Source: a virus (taxonomy: Duplodnaviria > Heunggongvirae > Uroviricota > Caudoviricetes). Taken from it: a DNA stretch of 4,324 bases. Positions 870 through 4,324 of the stretch are shown here, in pieces. A program made the position numbers and the translations under genes. Positions within the stretch are counted from its first letter, which is position 1, and the number at the start of each line of letters is the position of its first letter. The notes below the pieces were generated by a model. It searched no databases, was not told the origin of the DNA, and worked only from the letters and a program-made list of their open reading frames with translations. The DNA lies in IMG/VR virus record IMGVR_UViG_2778261506_000003. The stretch is one strand, 5' to 3'.

Positions 870-877
870 TCCTCACG

Positions 878-881
878 CTCC
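878..881 (-). promoter_or_regulatory. Shine-Dalgarno (GGAG) for J
   Basis: Minus-strand sequence reads ...tatGGAGcgtgaggaATGGGTAAA; GGAG has an 8-nt spacer to the J ATG at 869. Confidence 0.4.
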
Positions 882-891
882 ATAAACGACA

Positions 892-911
892 AAACCGCCC
901 GGAGGCGGTTT
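892..911 (-). terminator. I-J intergenic stem-loop followed by a U-rich tract (possible weak intrinsic terminator or attenuator)
   Basis: Inverted repeat aaaccgcc (892-899) / ggcggttt (904-911) with a 4-nt loop. On the minus-strand RNA this is AAACCGCC-UCCG-GGCGGUUU followed by UGUCGUUUAU, lying between the I stop (930-932) and the J start (869). Confidence 0.25.
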
Positions 912-929
912 CACATAAAACGTTTTTCA

Positions 930-1577
930 TCAGCGACCAATCACCACAACCTGACCACCATCCCCTTCGTCTGCCGTGCTGATCTCCTGAGAGACCACCC
1001 GCGACCCCACGCGCATTTCACCGTACAGAACGGGCAGAACATTGCCCTGGGCAACCATGTTATCCAGTGACGAGAAATAGGTGTTCTGTTTGCCGTTATC
1101 TGTACTGGCTGCCGTGGGCGTCCTGGCTTTCGGTGCCAGCATCTGCGCCACACCGCCCAGGATCATACTGGCCCCTGCCGCATACATACCCGATACAGCC
1201 GTGGCCCCCAGCCAGCCCACAGGGTTCCACCATGCAACCGCAATCAGCGCCGCCCCCAGCACTGCCTGAAAAATACCGCCACTTTTAGCACCCGCCGGAC
1301 GCGGTACGATGTGGATCACGGCACCATTTTCCAGCGGCTCATTAAGACGGGCAGACAATTCAGTTTCACCTGCATCACGCCCGGCAATGCGTACCTGGTA
1401 CCAGCCGTCGCTCAGTTTCTGACGAAATGCCGGGATCTGCATGGCCAGCGCCCGGATGGCTTCGGACCCCGTTTTCACTCGAAGGTCGCTGCGGCGGCTA
1501 AATCGTTGTAAATCCCCGTAAAGGCAGATGCGTGCCATGCCCGGTGACGCCAGAGGGAGTGTGTGCGTCGCTGCCAT
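930..1577 (-). CDS. I: Tail tip assembly protein I (gpI-like; N-terminal ubiquitin-like domain ending in Gly-Gly, then a hydrophobic segment)
   Basis: 215-aa ORF starting MAATHTLPLASPGMARICLYGDLQRF, as I recall for lambda gpI. The ...AKSGG motif at about residue 100 is followed by a hydrophobic stretch (IFQAVLGAALIAVAWW). Its 5' end overlaps the 3' end of K by 103 nt (1475-1577), the same overlap lambda has. Sits between K and J. Confidence 0.9.
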   Translation of the reverse strand: MAATHTLPLASPGMARICLYGDLQRFSRRSDLRVKTGSEAIRALAMQIPAFRQKLSDGWYQVRIAGRDAGETELSARLNEPLENGAVIHIVPRPAGAKSGGIFQAVLGAALIAVAWWNPVGWLGATAVSGMYAAGASMILGGVAQMLAPKARTPTAASTDNGKQNTYFSSLDNMVAQGNVLPVLYGEMRVGSRVVSQEISTADEGDGGQVVVIGR

Positions 1578-2218
1578 TTGTCGGTGTACCTCTCTCGTTT
1601 GCTCAGTTGTTCAGGAATATGGTGCAGCAGCTCGCTGTCACCACAGTAAATGGCGGCATGATTCGGCACCGATGAACCAAAACAGCACAGCAGCACATCG
1701 CCCGGCTGCGCCGCTGACAACGGCACCTGATACAGCCCTGTGGCCTCCAGATTATCCAGATAGAGATTCTGACCGTGACGCCACCAGTTATCCCCGCGAT
1801 GAAAATCCGGCATCTCAATTCCCGCCAGATGGTAAGCGTCCCGGAACAGCGTGTAACAGTCCGTCACCCCGTGCTCAAAGCGCCGCCCGGTGAGATGCGG
1901 CACACAGCGGAATTTATGAATCGCCCCCCGGCAGACCAGCCACCACGGCAAATCACTCTGTACCTGCAGCCGCCGGTCGGCCTCACTCAGCCAGGGCAGA
2001 CCACCGGGGTGGCTGTGGACCAGCGCCACAATCTCTCCCTGCATTTCTGCACTCAGCCAGTCCTCCGGCGACATACGGAAATACGCCTCCGGCTCACCGG
2101 AGATATTCACGCAGGGAAAATATCTTTCCTCCTCCGGCGTTCTCACCACGAAGCCGCACGACTCCGCTGGCGCACATCGCCGGGCGTGCGCCAGAATCGC
2201 TGATTCTGTCTCTGTCAT
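1475..2218 (-). CDS. K: Tail tip assembly protein K (gpK-like; JAB/MPN metallopeptidase domain plus NlpC/P60 cysteine-peptidase domain)
   Basis: 247-aa ORF from the ATG at 2218, which lies 5 nt after the L stop. JAMM motif HSHPGGLPWLSEAD (H-x-H-x7-S-x2-D) with an upstream Glu in AESCGFV. NlpC/P60-like Cys/His residues in the C-terminal half (VTDCYTLF, PNHAAIY, LLHHIP). An alternative internal start (ATG at 2074, preceded by GGAGG with an 11-nt spacer) would give the 199-aa form annotated for lambda. Confidence 0.9.
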   Translation of the reverse strand: MTETESAILAHARRCAPAESCGFVVRTPEEERYFPCVNISGEPEAYFRMSPEDWLSAEMQGEIVALVHSHPGGLPWLSEADRRLQVQSDLPWWLVCRGAIHKFRCVPHLTGRRFEHGVTDCYTLFRDAYHLAGIEMPDFHRGDNWWRHGQNLYLDNLEATGLYQVPLSAAQPGDVLLCCFGSSVPNHAAIYCGDSELLHHIPEQLSKRERYTDKWQRRTHSLWRHRAWHASAFTGIYNDLAAAATFE

Positions 2219-2223
2219 GGGAT

Positions 2224-2922
2224 TTACTGCGAAAGTTTGTTAATGGAAAGGAAGCTGCCAAAGTTGCCGACATTATTGCGAAACTTACAGCCACTCAGGC
2301 ATTTGCTGCATTTATCCTTCGTGATATCGGACGTCGGCTGGTCATATTCATCCGCGACCGCCGGACCGCTATAACCGCACTCATCGCCGCGATAGGTCCA
2401 GGTGCAGGTGTTGGCCAGCATGATACGTCCCGGAAAAACAGCGCCATCCGTTTCAGTCGGCGTGGACAGTACAAAAGAGGCACTGACCGCGCTCAGTTCG
2501 CTGCACTGCTCGATGCGCCAGCGGCTGATCACCTCCTGCTCCGGATCGGCTTCGCTGTTTCCGTTGACGAAGTTCACCGCATCCAGAAAGCGGGCGTAAA
2601 CCTTACGCCGGACCACCGTTCCGCCGACCAGACTCTGCAGATCTTCCGCCATCCCGGTGATCATGCCGTGCAGGTTAGAGACCGTCAGTGTCGGACGGGC
2701 AGCACTGCCCTTGCCGTTCATCTCAAATCCACTCCCCTGAATGGGATAGGCCTGATACTGCCGACTCTGCCAGGTGACAGACTCACCTTTTTCGTTCTGC
2801 TCATTACAGAAAAAGTAGCGATCCCCGCCTACCTCGGTCAGGTCGATTTCCCAGAGCACCACGCTGGCCGACTGCTCCGCACGAATGCATTCATTCAGCG
2901 TTTCCTGTTGTATGTCCTGCAT
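2224..2922 (-). CDS. L: Tail tip protein L (gpL-like; C-terminal cysteine cluster)
   Basis: 232-aa ORF, the same length as lambda gpL and with an N-terminus (MQDIQQETLNEC...) that I recall as lambda-like. Five Cys in the last ~60 residues (CTWTYRGDECGYSG...KCSKCLSGCKF). Its start overlaps the M stop by 1 nt (TGATG at 2920-2924). Confidence 0.9.
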   Translation of the reverse strand: MQDIQQETLNECIRAEQSASVVLWEIDLTEVGGDRYFFCNEQNEKGESVTWQSRQYQAYPIQGSGFEMNGKGSAARPTLTVSNLHGMITGMAEDLQSLVGGTVVRRKVYARFLDAVNFVNGNSEADPEQEVISRWRIEQCSELSAVSASFVLSTPTETDGAVFPGRIMLANTCTWTYRGDECGYSGPAVADEYDQPTSDITKDKCSKCLSGCKFRNNVGNFGSFLSINKLSQ

Positions 2923-3218
2923 CAGATCACCACTTCGTCAAACTGACACGAAAAATCGGTATAGGTGATATGTTCTGTCGCTGACCACGTTCGACACACC
3001 ACTCTGATTTTTCTGTTAATACCCGGCGGGCGCCAAAAAAAAGATTTATAGCCTTCATGCCGGGCTAAAAATTTTTCAAATGAATCACGTTCATTCGCCT
3101 CAACTTTGAAATCACAGGTGAAAACGCGCAGAGAATGATTAAGTCCATTTGGACTTCGTTGCTCATAACCATCGCCAAATCTTACAGTTTTTATCGATGG
3201 TTTATTTTCTGTTTTCAT
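2922..3218 (-). CDS. M: Tail tip protein M (gpM-like, divergent from lambda M)
   Basis: ORF ending at 2922. Preferred start is the ATG at 3218 (MKTENKPSIKTVRFGDGY..., 98 aa), preceded by GAGGA with a 4-nt spacer; the track's longer ORF begins at a GTG at 3260. The VRFGDGY motif and length resemble lambda M (109 aa) as I recall it. Lies between H and L. GC is low (about 40%) compared with L-K-I-J. Confidence 0.8.
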   Translation of the reverse strand: MKTENKPSIKTVRFGDGYEQRSPNGLNHSLRVFTCDFKVEANERDSFEKFLARHEGYKSFFWRPPGINRKIRVVCRTWSATEHITYTDFSCQFDEVVI

Positions 3219-3252
3219 TCCATCCTCTGGTAACCAGTGAAATTCTTCCGTA

Positions 3253-4073
3253 TTAGCCACTTAACATTCCCCCATCACGTCGCATATTTAACAGATTGCC
3301 CTGCACCCGCTGATCAACCATCCCCATAAGTGCTTTTATTGCCTGAGGGCCAATCTCTCCATTCTGGCCGTCATTTTGAATAGTGATTTGGTATACAGGG
3401 GCATAGGTAATATCTCCGCCTCCATTACCACTTTTACTATTAATAGCTCTGACACCAAGAGAACCATCGGAAGTTCGTGTTAATGGCATAATGGCTTCCG
3501 GACCAGCCTCACCAAAAACACCAGCCCCTCTTGCAAAAGCAAAAAATTGCGGGGAATCATAAATACCGTTCGAATACGTGTTCAATGACGGAGACTCATA
3601 AACACCGCCCTTTGCATTCGGAATAAATTTACTAATAGCACTCCCGATAGTTCCTAAAATCCCCCCAGAAGAACTGTTACTAATGCTGTCGAAAATCCCA
3701 GTAATTGAAGCCTTTAATGCTATTCGACTAAGATCCGAAATCACGGAAGTAGCGAAAGAACGAAAATTTGCCTTGCCTGTCGTGACAAAATCACCCAGCG
3801 CATCGGTCATTCCATCAAACATCTGAGTCGTGGTTGATTTTATCTGCTCACTGATATCCTTAGTGTCATCCAGCCAGTTATTGAATCCCTGGGAGGCACC
3901 ACTAACCCAGTCTCCTGCCTGAATATCGAGCTGCTCGTTTTTCTGTCTGACAATTTCTTTTTCTCGTTCCAGAGCATCATTCAGAGCCTGCATTTTCTCC
4001 TGAAAAACATGATTTGACATCCCACGGGATTTATCTGCATAGTCACGTTCAAGTTGCAGACGCTGATTGTTAT
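3253..4073 (-). pseudogene. H: Tail tape-measure protein gene (H-like), C-terminal ~270 codons only; the 5' part is separated by an IS5-family insertion
   Basis: Open frame ending at stop 3253-3255, 34 nt upstream of the M start. Low-complexity, Gly/Ser/Ala-rich C-terminal region typical of siphovirus tape-measure proteins (...NAKGGVYESPSLNTYSNGIYDSPQFFAFARGAGVFGEAGPEAIMPLTRT...), with an upstream coiled-coil-like segment (QEKMQALNDALEREKEIVRQKNEQL). The frame continues 5' into IS-derived sequence at 4074, so the track's 328-aa ORF is chimeric. Confidence 0.7.
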
Positions 4074-4089
4074 GGAAGGTGCGAATAAG
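4074..4089. repeat. IS5-type terminal inverted repeat (IRR)
   Basis: 16-bp GGAAGGTGCGAATAAG at the junction with tape-measure sequence. The flanking tetranucleotide 4070-4073 is TTAT. Confidence 0.7.
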
Positions 4090-4220
4090 CAGGTCATTTC
4101 TTCCCAAGCTGACTCGTTGATTAAAATTTCGCGGATCTGGGCCGATTTTTTTCCCGCAAACACATCGAATCAGCCTATTTAGGCTATTTTTTCCACCATT
4201 TCTGGCGTTATTTCCGGTTT

Positions 4221-4324
<104 letters not shown>

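What the first reader, a model, noticed from the sequence alone, without database searches (positions are those of the whole stretch)
930..2218. K (JAB/MPN + NlpC/P60) and I (ubiquitin-like, Gly-Gly) as an overlapping peptidase-substrate pair; K start is ambiguous
K carries a complete JAMM motif (HSHPGGLPWLSEAD) with a candidate upstream catalytic Glu (AESCGFV), plus an NlpC/P60-like C-terminal half. The candidate Glu lies upstream of Met49, so the 199-aa form annotated for lambda would lack it. The long frame starts 5 nt after the L stop, which suggests translational coupling. I has a ubiquitin-like N-terminal domain ending in SGG before a hydrophobic segment, and overlaps K by 103 nt. Earlier comparative-genomics work proposed that the JAB domain cleaves the ubiquitin-like protein; the sequence here fits that.
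Basis: partly seen in the sequence, partly recalled or inferred. Interest (0 to 1): 0.4.

Follow-up and report, generated by a model that had tools for sequence, protein, structure and literature searches.

The report
Lambda-type tail genes K and I
These are the ordinary tail-tip assembly genes K (a double protease) and I (a ubiquitin-like protein fused to a tail plug) of a lambda-like prophage; the pairing was predicted in 2006, and the "ambiguous" K start goes away because the short K in the lambda reference comes from one missing G in the 1982 sequence.

Summary
On the minus strand, K (1475-2218, 247 aa) starts 5 nt after the L stop and overlaps I (930-1577) by 103 nt.

K is a JAMM/MPN+ metalloprotease domain (residues 4-98) joined to an NlpC/P60 cysteine peptidase domain (111-224). 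I has a MoaD/ubiquitin-like N-terminal domain ending in SGG, then a hydrophobic stretch and a C-terminal domain.

The proposal that the JAB domain cleaves the Ub-like domain off I is that of Iyer, Burroughs and Aravind (2006). It is still untested.

The K start is not really ambiguous. Domain models, a confident structure model, 99 distant homologues, substitution patterns in 158 alleles and gene layout in distant loci all support the long form.

Lambda's 199-aa K is an artefact. J02459/NC_001416 lacks one G at position 14267. Independent lambda sequences, lambda DNA contaminating unrelated assemblies, and 232 of 235 reads in a 2011 dataset all carry that G, which gives an intact 247-aa K.

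The start of I is also annotated in three ways. The only universally conserved one is the Met14 ATG (window 1538, 64-nt overlap).

Verdict: already known biology with a useful annotation correction. Interest is low to moderate.

The parts
2224..2922 (-). Gene L (minor tail protein L, 232 aa). Its TAA stop (2224-2226) lies 5 nt upstream of the K start.
   Evidence: Pfam Phage_tail_L 326 bits and TIGR01600 328 bits. Junction cagTAAatcccATG.
1475..2218 (-). Gene K, full length 247 aa: JAMM/MPN+ domain plus NlpC/P60 domain. The true start is the ATG at 2216-2218.
   Evidence: ORF; Pfam; AF2 pLDDT 97.4; 81 of 98 distant homologues begin at or before this Met; the first start in the K frame lies -4 to +17 nt from the L stop in most distant loci.
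1925..2209 (-). K JAB/JAMM domain (residues 4-98). Includes Glu19 (2162-2164) and H68-S-H70...S78..D81 (1976-2017).
   Evidence: Prok-JAB 4-98, profile positions 4-103 of 114. Conservation in 99 sequences: E19 98, H68 99, H70 99, S78 93, D81 99. Foldseek match to PfJAMM1 5ld9/5lda, TM 0.67. 2kks aligns E19 with its PNEACG.
2072..2090 (-). Internal Met49 codon (2072-2074) with a GGAGG (2086-2090) 11 nt upstream. This is the start used for lambda's 199-aa K and by some gene callers.
   Evidence: Met at this column in only 14 of 99 homologues, Ile in 62. Not ATG in 5 of 158 close alleles. The K199 form scores 22.8 bits for Prok-JAB, below the 25-bit cut-off, and covers only profile positions 64-103.
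1547..1888 (-). K NlpC/P60 (C40) peptidase domain (residues 111-224). Cys121 is at 1856-1858; His187 and His199 complete the triad.
   Evidence: PF00877 46 bits. C121, H187 and H199 each conserved in 98 of 99. Foldseek matches to MepS/Spr, LytE and Acd33800, TM 0.6-0.69.
1475..1577 (-). K/I overlap: 103 nt from the I Met1 ATG (1575-1577), or 64 nt from the Met14 ATG (1536-1538). I is in the -1 frame relative to K.
   Evidence: An overlap of 58-106 nt in the same relative frame is found in all loci examined, down to 47% K identity. Third-position bias is lost here (12/11/16), as expected for dual coding.
930..1577 (-). Gene I (215 aa from Met1; 202 aa from Met14, the conserved start).
   Evidence: ORF. 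4.9e-104 match to lambda gpI chains 8iyk/8k35/8xcg. All 42 non-redundant orthologues have an ATG at the Met14-equivalent position, and in most of the distant loci it is the only possible start.
1275..1538 (-). I ubiquitin-like (MoaD/ThiS-type beta-grasp) domain, residues 14-101, ending in S99-G100-G101 (the two Gly codons are 1275-1280).
   Evidence: PF06805 covers 14-97. G101 is invariant. All top-50 Foldseek hits are Ub-like proteins, led by MoaD 3rpf_C at TM 0.73, but the model is low-confidence. A domain profile finds the same MoaD chain at only E 0.42.
1137..1274 (-). I hydrophobic, Gly-rich segment (residues 102 to about 147). Its length varies between orthologues and it ends in the conserved GGVAQML helix.
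   Evidence: Alignment A4. The equivalent lambda segment 137-152 is described as highly hydrophobic and possibly membrane-interacting (PMC10721106).
933..1205 (-). I C-terminal domain (residues ~125-215, equivalent to lambda 134-223). In lambda this forms the trimeric plug in the tail-tip lumen.
   Evidence: 9e7m chains. Cryo-EM descriptions in PMC10721106 and PMC12617516.
870..929 (-). 60-nt I-J spacer with a stable hairpin, followed by the J start (ATG at 867-869).
   Evidence: Fold dG -22.9 kcal/mol, z -3.55, 0 of 200 shuffles as stable. The simple terminator scan did not call it.

Best explanation
The region is the K-I part of a lambda-type tail-tip assembly operon (H-M-L-K-I-J, minus strand). 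K is made as a 247-aa protein from the ATG at 2218, probably by ribosomes re-initiating after finishing L, 5 nt upstream. It has two catalytically intact peptidase domains: an N-terminal zinc JAMM/MPN+ domain (Glu19, His68, His70, Ser78, Asp81) and a C-terminal NlpC/P60 cysteine peptidase (Cys121, His187, His199). I starts inside the 3' end of K, in the -1 frame, at the conserved Met14 ATG (1538) and possibly also at Met1 (1577). I consists of a MoaD/ubiquitin-like beta-grasp domain ending in an invariant Gly (G101), then a hydrophobic segment, then a C-terminal domain. The most likely mechanism is the one proposed by Iyer et al. 2006. During tail-tip assembly the non-structural K recognises the Ub-like domain of I, as archaeal JAMM1 recognises SAMP2. 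It cuts after the terminal Gly and releases the Ub-like domain. The hydrophobic segment and C-terminal domain stay behind as the trimeric plug under the tape-measure protein. Shown here: gene limits, domain folds, conservation of catalytic residues, the start of K, and conservation of the overlap. Inferred: translational coupling, the cleavage itself, and its site. The 199-aa K of the lambda reference is an annotation artefact caused by a missing G at J02459 position 14267.
For: Domains and motifs.
K structure: AF2 pLDDT 97.4; residues 1-48 form helix 3-15 and strands 21-26 and 31-36 of the N-terminal domain. Foldseek matches the N-domain to PfJAMM1, free and bound to the Ubl SAMP2, and to AMSH, Rpn11 and CSN5; it matches the C-domain to MepS, LytE and Spr.
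Long start: distant homologues of 228-271 aa align from their own N-termini. Codons 1-48 show a coding signature: variable sites 17/7/33 by codon position, synonymous fraction 0.50 in frame against 0.27 and 0.17 out of frame. The K start stays within -4 to +17 nt of the L stop in most distant loci. PGAP aa.
Lambda artefact: J02459 reads GGC-TAT, whereas LC730321, PV340536, KT232076, DE3 and imm434 read GGCGTAT. The deletion allele has 0 hits in IMG/VR against at least 120 for the intact allele. At least 10 independent assemblies contaminated with lambda DNA are 100% identical to the intact K. Table S5 of PMC3059205 lists '-' to 'G' at 14267 in 232 of 235 reads.
I anatomy and invariant Gly. Ubl fold.
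Fit with experiment: only gpI 134/135-223 is resolved in virions, and gpK is absent from virions by mass spectrometry.
Published hypothesis, including natural JAB-TAPI fusions.
Against: No experiment shows that I is cleaved, by K or by anything else. The missing N-terminal part of gpI in cryo-EM maps could be disorder rather than removal; residues 102-133, which lie after the proposed cut, are also unresolved. Virion mass spectrometry found only one gpI peptide (9.9% coverage), which is uninformative. The I structure model is low-confidence (pLDDT 50) and the sequence link to MoaD is not significant on its own (E 0.42). Which K domain acts on I is unknown; Iyer et al. also allow a role for NlpC/P60. 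In the Escherichia clade an ATG with a GGAGG upstream is kept at codon 49 (153 and 156 of 158 alleles), so some internal initiation cannot be excluded.
Confidence: 0.55

Rival explanations
1. K is made only from Met49 (199 aa), as in the lambda reference. The JAB-like N-terminal sequence is an untranslated remnant, so K is in effect an NlpC/P60 peptidase alone.
For: The lambda records annotate 199 aa. A GGAGG lies 11 nt upstream of Met49, and the long start has no Shine-Dalgarno. Several large 199-aa protein clusters exist.
Against: The 199-aa call in lambda is forced by a missing G that is absent from independent lambda sequences and from reads. Of 11 contigs with a K199 call, none carried the J02459 gap: three had a fully open 247-aa frame, four had other homopolymer frameshifts, and the frame of four was not determined. 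Codons 1-48 evolve as coding sequence. Six of the 23 invariant or near-invariant family positions, including the catalytic Glu, lie upstream of Met49, and Met49 is Ile in 62 of 99 homologues. K199 loses helix 1 and two core strands and drops below the Pfam JAB cut-off.
Confidence: 0.03
2. Both K247 and a shorter K199 (NlpC/P60 only) are made from the same mRNA in the Escherichia lambdoid clade, by internal initiation at Met49. This would give two isoforms with different roles.
For: ATG at codon 49 in 153 of 158 close alleles and GGAGG in 156 of 158. Spacing of 11 nt. Gene callers often prefer this site.
Against: The GGAGG is simply the codons for conserved Pro-Glu-Ala, so its conservation needs no extra explanation. 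Met49 is not conserved outside the clade (14 of 99). Five close alleles lack the ATG. An 11-nt spacing is long for efficient initiation. No protein evidence.
Confidence: 0.1
3. K binds the Ub-like domain of I but does not cut it. K acts as an assembly chaperone that delivers I to the J-L complex, and the Ubl domain stays attached but flexible, so it is invisible in cryo-EM.
For: Cleavage has never been shown. Cryo-EM also fails to resolve residues 102-133, beyond the proposed cut. K is non-structural, as a chaperone would be.
Against: All JAMM catalytic residues are kept in 93-99 of 99 sequences at 31-68% identity, which is hard to explain for a binding-only module (inactive MPN- domains typically lose them). 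The terminal Gly of the Ubl domain is invariant.
Confidence: 0.2
4. The long, conserved -1 overlap reflects programmed -1 ribosomal frameshifting that makes a K-I fusion protein (like lambda G-GT), placing enzyme and substrate in one chain.
For: I is in the -1 frame relative to K in every locus examined, with a 58-106 nt overlap. A few database proteins are K-I fusions (P0015, P0033). Iyer et al. mention rare TAPI-TAPK fusions.
Against: There is no X XXY YYZ slippery heptamer in the last 140 nt of K. An ATG is conserved at the start of the Ubl domain in 42 of 42 orthologues, and in most of the distant loci the I frame opens only one codon before it. The fusion proteins listed are clusters of 1-2 sequences whose junctions differ, consistent with sporadic frameshift mutations or errors.
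Confidence: 0.03
5. I is processed by the NlpC/P60 domain of K, not the JAB domain. The JAB domain has another target or only docks the Ubl domain.
For: [quoted passage not shown] The Cys-His-His triad is conserved.
Against: JAMM enzymes are the known class that cuts after the terminal Gly of MoaD/SAMP/ubiquitin-type beta-grasp proteins; the closest structural match is PfJAMM1 bound to SAMP2. In the NlpC/P60-only variants the JAB domain is reported fused to TAPI itself, which keeps JAB and Ubl together.
Confidence: 0.1

Closest known systems
Bacteriophage lambda gpK and gpI (tail tip assembly proteins K and I; TAPK/TAPI of Iyer et al. 2006)
   Same: Direct orthologues in the same H-M-L-K-I-J order. 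The K protein is about 95% identical to lambda's and I is 77-79% identical. Same L-K spacing and same 103-nt K/I overlap.
   Different: I is 215 aa rather than 223, with a shorter hydrophobic linker. The lambda reference record shows K as 199 aa because of a missing G; the real lambda K is 247 aa, like this one. In this window the neighbouring M and H genes come from a different, AT-rich lineage, and H is cut by an IS element.
Archaeal JAMM1 / desampylase acting on the ubiquitin-like SAMP (PDB 5ld9, 5lda), and bacterial JAMM-MoaD/CysO-type pairs
   Same: Same MPN+ fold and the full E...HxH...S..D zinc site. The partner is a MoaD-type beta-grasp protein with a terminal Gly. There is a sub-threshold hit to the NCBIfam desampylase model.
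   Different: Here the JAMM domain is fused to an NlpC/P60 peptidase. The proposed substrate is a linear fusion (Ubl-linker-structural domain), not an isopeptide conjugate. The module encodes no E1-like enzyme. The NCBIfam score (29.7) is far below that model's cut-off of 130, so K is not a desampylase equivalog.
NlpC/P60 (C40) endopeptidases such as E. coli MepS/Spr and B. subtilis LytE
   Same: Papain-like fold and a conserved Cys-His-His triad.
   Different: K has no signal peptide or cell-wall-binding domain. It is not found in the virion, so a peptidoglycan-cutting role during infection is unlikely. Its substrate is unknown.
F-type pyocin and other lambda-like tail modules (PDB 9l9p, 25vf 'putative tail assembly protein')
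   Same: Homologous I-like proteins (E 3e-17 to 2e-20). A gpK counterpart is likewise encoded but not resolved in the particle.
   Different: Distant sequences; these are bacteriocin particles rather than phage.

Membership tests
JAMM/MPN+ metalloprotease (Pfam Prok-JAB PF14464) | Score above the curated Pfam cut-off over most of the domain | tested here: met
   52.8 bits against a cut-off of 25; residues 4-98 cover profile positions 4-103 of 114.
JAMM/MPN+ metalloprotease (Pfam Prok-JAB PF14464) | Complete JAMM motif: Glu ... His-Ser/Thr-His-x7-Ser-x2-Asp | tested here: met
   E19, H68-S69-H70, S78 and D81 are all present. Conservation in 99 homologues: 98, 99, 94(+5 Thr), 99, 93(+5 Thr), 99. 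E19 aligns with the Glu of the JAMM protein 2kks.
JAMM/MPN+ metalloprotease (Pfam Prok-JAB PF14464) | MPN fold | tested here: met
   AF2 model pLDDT 97.4. Foldseek matches to PfJAMM1 5ld9/5lda (TM 0.67, rmsd 2.4-2.6 A), 2kks, AMSH, Rpn11 and CSN5.
JAMM/MPN+ metalloprotease (Pfam Prok-JAB PF14464) | Zinc-dependent cleavage after the C-terminal Gly of a Ub-like protein | not testable with these tools
   Needs biochemistry. No report was found in the searchable literature.
NlpC/P60 (C40) cysteine peptidase | Pfam PF00877 above cut-off over the whole profile | tested here: met
   46 bits against a cut-off of 23; residues 111-224 cover profile positions 1-105 of 105.
NlpC/P60 (C40) cysteine peptidase | Catalytic Cys-His-(His/polar) triad and papain-like fold | tested here: met
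   C121, H187 and H199 are each conserved in 98 of 99. Foldseek matches to MepS/Spr, LytE and Acd33800, TM 0.6-0.69.
Lambda tail assembly protein I (TAPI; Pfam PF06805) | Pfam domain above cut-off and orthology to lambda gpI | tested here: met
   85.8 bits against a cut-off of 23.8. E 4.9e-104 to gpI chains over the full length.
Ubiquitin-like beta-grasp (ThiS/MoaD type) | Beta-grasp fold of the N-terminal domain | tested here: inconclusive
   All top-50 Foldseek hits are Ub-like proteins (MoaD 3rpf_C TM 0.73, 1fm0_D 0.69, Urm1 0.70), but no E-value reaches 1e-3 and the model has pLDDT of only 52-68 in this domain. The sequence profile hits the same MoaD chain at E 0.42. A published PSI-BLAST link exists.
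Ubiquitin-like beta-grasp (ThiS/MoaD type) | Conserved Gly at the C-terminus of the domain | tested here: met
   G101 is invariant in 28 and in 45 sequences. G100 is at least 90% conserved in the 45-sequence set but is G/A/N in the more distant set.
Programmed -1 frameshift pair (lambda G/GT type) | Slippery heptamer in the overlap, and a downstream frame without its own conserved start | tested here: not met
   No X XXY YYZ site in the last 140 nt of K. An ATG is conserved at the start of I in 42 of 42 orthologues.

The most novel reading that the evidence does not exclude
K may be the dedicated two-headed maturation protease of the tail tip, with one substrate per domain. The JAMM domain would remove the Ub-like domain from I. 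[quoted passage not shown] A 2025 structural paper states that it is unknown how that cut is catalysed. K is the only peptidase encoded in the tail module and is absent from finished virions.
Probability: 0.1. Interest if true: 0.6.

Novelty: already known. Interest (0 to 1): 0.3.

Why it matters
The K-I pairing is one of the oldest predicted links between a JAB peptidase and a ubiquitin-like protein outside eukaryotes, yet it has never been tested.

Work on it that starts from the lambda reference (J02459/NC_001416, UniProt P03729, 199 aa) uses a K that lacks the catalytic Glu and half of the JAB fold. That form could look like an inactive remnant in models or fail in experiments. The real lambda K is 247 aa with a complete active site, so the hypothesis is cleanly testable: mutate E19, H68, H70 or D81, and look for the new N-terminus on I.

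The analysis also shows that I should be cloned from Met14 or Met1, not from the GTG at K's stop. Several annotation pipelines pick that GTG, which removes the first 25 positions of the 83-position Pfam model of the Ub-like domain.

For the window itself, nothing unusual is present.

Tried and rejected
1. Programmed frameshift in lambda K. I considered that lambda bridges the 76-aa upstream ORF and K199 by -1 frameshifting. Rejected: the K frame is open for only 6 codons upstream of Met49, with no slippery site, and the extra G is present in independent sequences and reads.

2. A real stock-specific deletion in lambda. Two later records (OR474059, flagged UNVERIFIED, and OR974322) share the gap. 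However, at least 10 de novo assemblies contaminated with lambda DNA, and the ATCC lambda reads, all carry the G. The two records are most simply reference-guided, though I could not prove that.

3. Exact look-up of the 76-aa frameshift product. It is absent from 15 billion proteins. This is weak evidence, because gene callers would probably skip an ORF that overlaps K199.

4. K-I fusion by -1 frameshifting. Rejected (see rivals).

5. Literature on a full-length lambda K, or on experimental I cleavage. Nothing was found. The Casjens-Hendrix review and the Liu et al. ribosome-profiling paper are not held.

6. Virion mass spectrometry for gpI peptides. One peptide at 9.9% coverage, so uninformative.

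7. AF2 of I. Low confidence, so the fold evidence is treated as supportive only.

8. Sequence-profile link of the I Ubl domain to MoaD/ThiS. E 0.42, not significant.

9. First attempt to scan genome contigs with the 99-sequence alignment. It failed for lack of a conserved stretch; a 10-sequence alignment worked.

10. Rfam scan of the window. No hits.
Full report
WHAT IS IN THE WINDOW

All long ORFs lie on the minus strand and form the distal part of a lambda-type tail operon:
- a C-terminal fragment of the tape-measure gene H (3253-4073, read through into foreign DNA up to 4239);
- M (2922-3260);
- L (2224-2922);
- K (1475-2218, 247 aa);
- I (930-1577, 215 aa);
- the first 289 codons of J (869 down to 3).

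The closest phage records are lambdoid Escherichia and Salmonella phages at 92-96% identity.

CHECK OF THE OBSERVATION

- The L stop (TAA, 2224-2226) is followed by ATCCC and then the K ATG.
- K residues 68-81 read HSHPGGLPWLSEAD, residues 18-24 read AESCGFV, and residue 49 is Met.
- I overlaps K by 103 nt and reads ...AGAKSGG(99-101) followed by a hydrophobic stretch.
- Pfam places Prok-JAB at K residues 4-98 (52.8 bits, cut-off 25; profile positions 4-103 of 114).
- Pfam places NLPC_P60 at K residues 111-224 (46 bits, cut-off 23).
- Pfam places Lambda_tail_I at I residues 14-97 (85.8 bits, cut-off 23.8).

That test is passed.

IS THE K START AMBIGUOUS?

Six lines of evidence say no.

1. Removing residues 1-48 drops the JAB score to 22.8 bits, below the cut-off, and leaves only profile positions 64-103. 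The 199-aa clusters in the protein database carry only the NlpC/P60 annotation.

2. An AlphaFold2 model built on 99 sequences is very confident (pLDDT 97.4, pTM 0.91). Residues 1-48 supply helix 3-15 and strands 21-26 and 31-36 of the N-terminal domain.

3. In an exhaustive search of 1.84 billion cluster representatives, full-length homologues of 228-271 aa at 34-50% identity align from their own residues ~3-15 to query residues ~3-10.
   - In a 99-sequence alignment, 81 of 98 homologues begin at or before the window's Met1.
   - Glu19 is kept in 98 of 99.
   - Six of the 23 invariant or near-invariant positions lie upstream of Met49.
   - Position 49 is Ile in 62 sequences and Met in only 14.

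4. Among 158 distinct intact K alleles (84-100% nucleotide identity), codons 1-48 evolve as coding sequence.
   - Variable sites by codon position are 17/7/33, against 54/29/113 for codons 49-213.
   - The synonymous fraction is 0.50 in frame, against 0.27 and 0.17 in the other frames.
   - Five alleles have no ATG at codon 49.

5. In loci from Providencia, Proteus, Morganella, Gilliamella, Xenorhabdus, Pasteurellaceae and others (47-77% K identity), the first start in the K frame gives 237-249 aa. In most of them it lies -4 to +17 nt from the L stop. The long start has no Shine-Dalgarno sequence. Re-initiation after L is therefore the natural reading, but it is an inference.

6. NCBI's PGAP already annotates 247 aa in E. 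coli genomes.

WHY LAMBDA SAYS 199 aa

Lambda has the same ATG after L and the same 48 codons. However, J02459/NC_001416 reads CCGGAGGC-TATTTCCGTATG where the window and other phages read CCGGAGGCGTATTTCCGTATG. In the reference, the upstream ATG therefore opens a 76-aa dead-end ORF, and the first usable start in the K frame is Met49.

The missing G is not real lambda sequence:
- Only four phage records share the 176-nt reference version: J02459, its RefSeq copy, one record flagged UNVERIFIED, and one isolate record that has the same coordinates as the reference. All other lambda derivatives span 177 nt.
- Direct reading shows the G and an intact 247-aa frame in LC730321 (total length 48,503), PV340536, KT232076, DE3 and lambda imm434.
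- The deletion allele has 0 exact matches in IMG/VR, against at least 120 for the intact allele.
- Eleven contigs on which a gene caller produced K199 were read, and none carries the reference gap. Three have an open 247-aa frame, four have other homopolymer frameshifts, and for four my script did not find the upstream anchor.
- At least ten low-coverage lambda contigs that contaminate genome projects of unrelated bacteria are 100.0% identical to the intact K over 744 nt.
- Table S5 of Allen et al. 2011 (PMC3059205) lists, for ATCC lambda, a '-' to 'G' difference at reference position 14267 in 232 of 235 reads. No locus is named there, because the position falls in the supposed L-K gap.

I found no paper that draws the consequence for K.

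Met49 was chosen, and gene callers still choose it, because a GGAGG lies 11 nt upstream. That GGAGG is simply the codons for the conserved Pro-Glu-Ala. Some internal initiation in the Escherichia clade cannot be excluded, but it would yield a protein without a foldable JAB domain.

K AS AN ENZYME

The full JAMM signature (E19, H68-S-H70, S78, D81) and the NlpC/P60 residues (C121, H187, H199) are conserved in 93-99 of 99 sequences.

Foldseek against the PDB splits the model cleanly:
- The N-terminal domain matches Pyrococcus JAMM1, free and bound to the ubiquitin-like SAMP2 (5ld9, 5lda; TM 0.67, rmsd 2.4-2.6 A). It also matches 2kks, AMSH, Rpn11 and CSN5.
- The C-terminal domain matches MepS/Spr, LytE and Acd33800 (TM 0.6-0.69).

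Both domains therefore look catalytically competent.

I AND ITS START

Databases hold three start models for I:
- Met1 (213-223 aa, as annotated in lambda);
- Met14 (200-202 aa, used by PGAP);
- a GTG overlapping K's stop (180-190 aa, chosen by several pipelines).

The GTG model removes Pfam profile positions 1-25 and can be dismissed.

Across distant loci the I frame is always -1 relative to K and overlaps it by 58-106 nt. In most of the distant loci the frame opens one codon before an ATG that corresponds to Met14. All 42 non-redundant orthologues have that ATG. The Met1 ATG exists only in the Escherichia/Citrobacter clade, with an equivalent at 97 nt in the Proteus, Providencia and Morganella clade. 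The conserved overlap is therefore 58-64 nt. Whether the 13-residue extension is made here is open.

There is no canonical slippery heptamer in the overlap. The few K-I fusion proteins in the database are clusters of one or two sequences with different junctions. Programmed frameshifting is therefore not supported.

The I family has four parts:
- an N-terminal domain ending in an invariant Gly (G101), where the preceding Gly is G/A/N in distant members;
- a hydrophobic, Gly-rich stretch of variable length;
- a conserved GGVAQML helix;
- a conserved C-terminal domain.

The AF2 model of I is poor (pLDDT 50; 52-68 in the N-terminal domain). Even so, all 50 best Foldseek matches are ubiquitin-like beta-grasp proteins, led by MoaD (3rpf_C at TM 0.73, 1fm0_D at 0.69) and Urm1. 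A sequence profile of the domain finds the same MoaD chain over its full length, but only at E 0.42. I rate the fold assignment as likely but not proven here. It agrees with the PSI-BLAST result of Iyer et al..

MECHANISM

Iyer, Burroughs and Aravind (2006) made three points:
- TAPI is a Ub-like protein with a C-terminal Gly.
- It is flanked by TAPK, which carries JAB and NlpC/P60 domains.
- JAB probably releases the Ub-like domain by cutting at the last Gly.

They also noted variants in which JAB is fused to TAPI itself.

Later cryo-EM fits this picture. In lambda and Ur-lambda virions, only gpI residues 134/135-223 are resolved, as a trimeric plug under the C-terminal helices of gpH. gpK is absent from virions by mass spectrometry.

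None of this proves cleavage:
- Residues 102-133 are also unresolved.
- The virion mass spectrometry has one gpI peptide.
- No biochemical test was found.

I put about 0.55 on the full model (K247 coupled to L, with JAMM cutting I after G101). I put about 0.2 on a non-cleaving chaperone role. Smaller weights go to NlpC/P60 being the processing domain, to a K199 isoform, and to frameshift fusion.

COMPARISON AND NOVELTY

This is an ordinary member of the lambda K/I family. The interpretation has been in print since 2006 and the domains are in Pfam.

This analysis adds three things:
- a firm resolution of the start question;
- the explanation of lambda's 199-aa K as a one-base error in the 1982 record, seen in a 2011 supplementary table but not interpreted there;
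- the finding that the conserved start of I is Met14.

These are annotation-level corrections that matter for anyone testing the hypothesis with lambda reagents.

OTHER THINGS SEEN

- Window 4071/4074-4324 is the terminus of an ISKpn26-like IS5-family element inserted in H, so this prophage is probably defective.
- G+C content falls from 55-62% (J', I, K, L) to 40-45% (M, H'). Phage matches break at about 2874-2944, which marks a mosaic joint at the L/M border.
- The 60-nt I-J spacer folds into a stable hairpin (dG -22.9 kcal/mol, z -3.55) that partly covers the J ribosome-binding site.

Noticed in passing
window 4071-4324 (junction at about 4073/4074): The right end of the window is the terminus of an IS5-family, ISKpn26-like element (inverted repeat GGAAGGTGCGAATAAG) inserted in the tape-measure gene H. 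ORF 3253-4239 is therefore an H C-terminal fragment read through into IS DNA, and the prophage is probably defective.
   Followed up: yes
window ~2874-2944 (L/M border) and 2940-4073: G+C drops from 55-62% (J', I, K, L) to 40-45% (M, H'). Most lambdoid phage matches stop at 2874-2944 while another set continues to 4073. This looks like a mosaic recombination joint. M here is 112 aa, against 109 in lambda.
   Followed up: partly
window 870-929, minus strand: The 60-nt spacer between the I stop and the J start folds into a strong hairpin (GAAACCGCC-UCCG-GGCGGUUUU core; dG -22.9 kcal/mol, z -3.55, 0 of 200 shuffles as stable). Its extended stem pairs with the GGAG in front of the J ATG. It may modulate J translation or stabilise the mRNA. 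The simple terminator scan did not call it.
   Followed up: partly
L004/L005 (lambda NC_001416/J02459), record position 14267: The lambda reference lacks one G that is present in independent lambda sequences and in 232 of 235 reads of a 2011 dataset. This splits K into a 76-aa dead-end ORF and the annotated 199-aa K. UniProt P03729 and the RefSeq protein inherit the truncation.
   Followed up: yes
L227, L229-L231, L233, L235-L238, L240 (genome contigs): Species-representative genomes of unrelated bacteria (Neobacillus, Pseudomonas, Shewanella, Chromatium, Bradyrhizobium, Leeuwenhoekiella and others) contain low-coverage lambda contigs, in three cases of about 48.4-48.5 kb. This is laboratory lambda DNA contaminating public assemblies.
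   Followed up: partly
L093-L103 and phage records PV340536, ON032529: Gene callers disagree on both genes. K is called at Met1, Met49 or elsewhere. I is called at Met1, Met14 or a GTG overlapping K's stop. Protein clusters of 199-aa K and 180-190-aa I are largely products of these choices, not of different genes.
   Followed up: yes
P0033, P0015 (database proteins): Rare K-I fusion proteins exist. In P0033 the junction (…KWQRRT|LPLASPG…) is what loss of one CA unit from the ACACAC run in the overlap would produce, shifting K into the I frame. Each is a cluster of one or two sequences, so they are probably mutations or assembly errors.
   Followed up: partly
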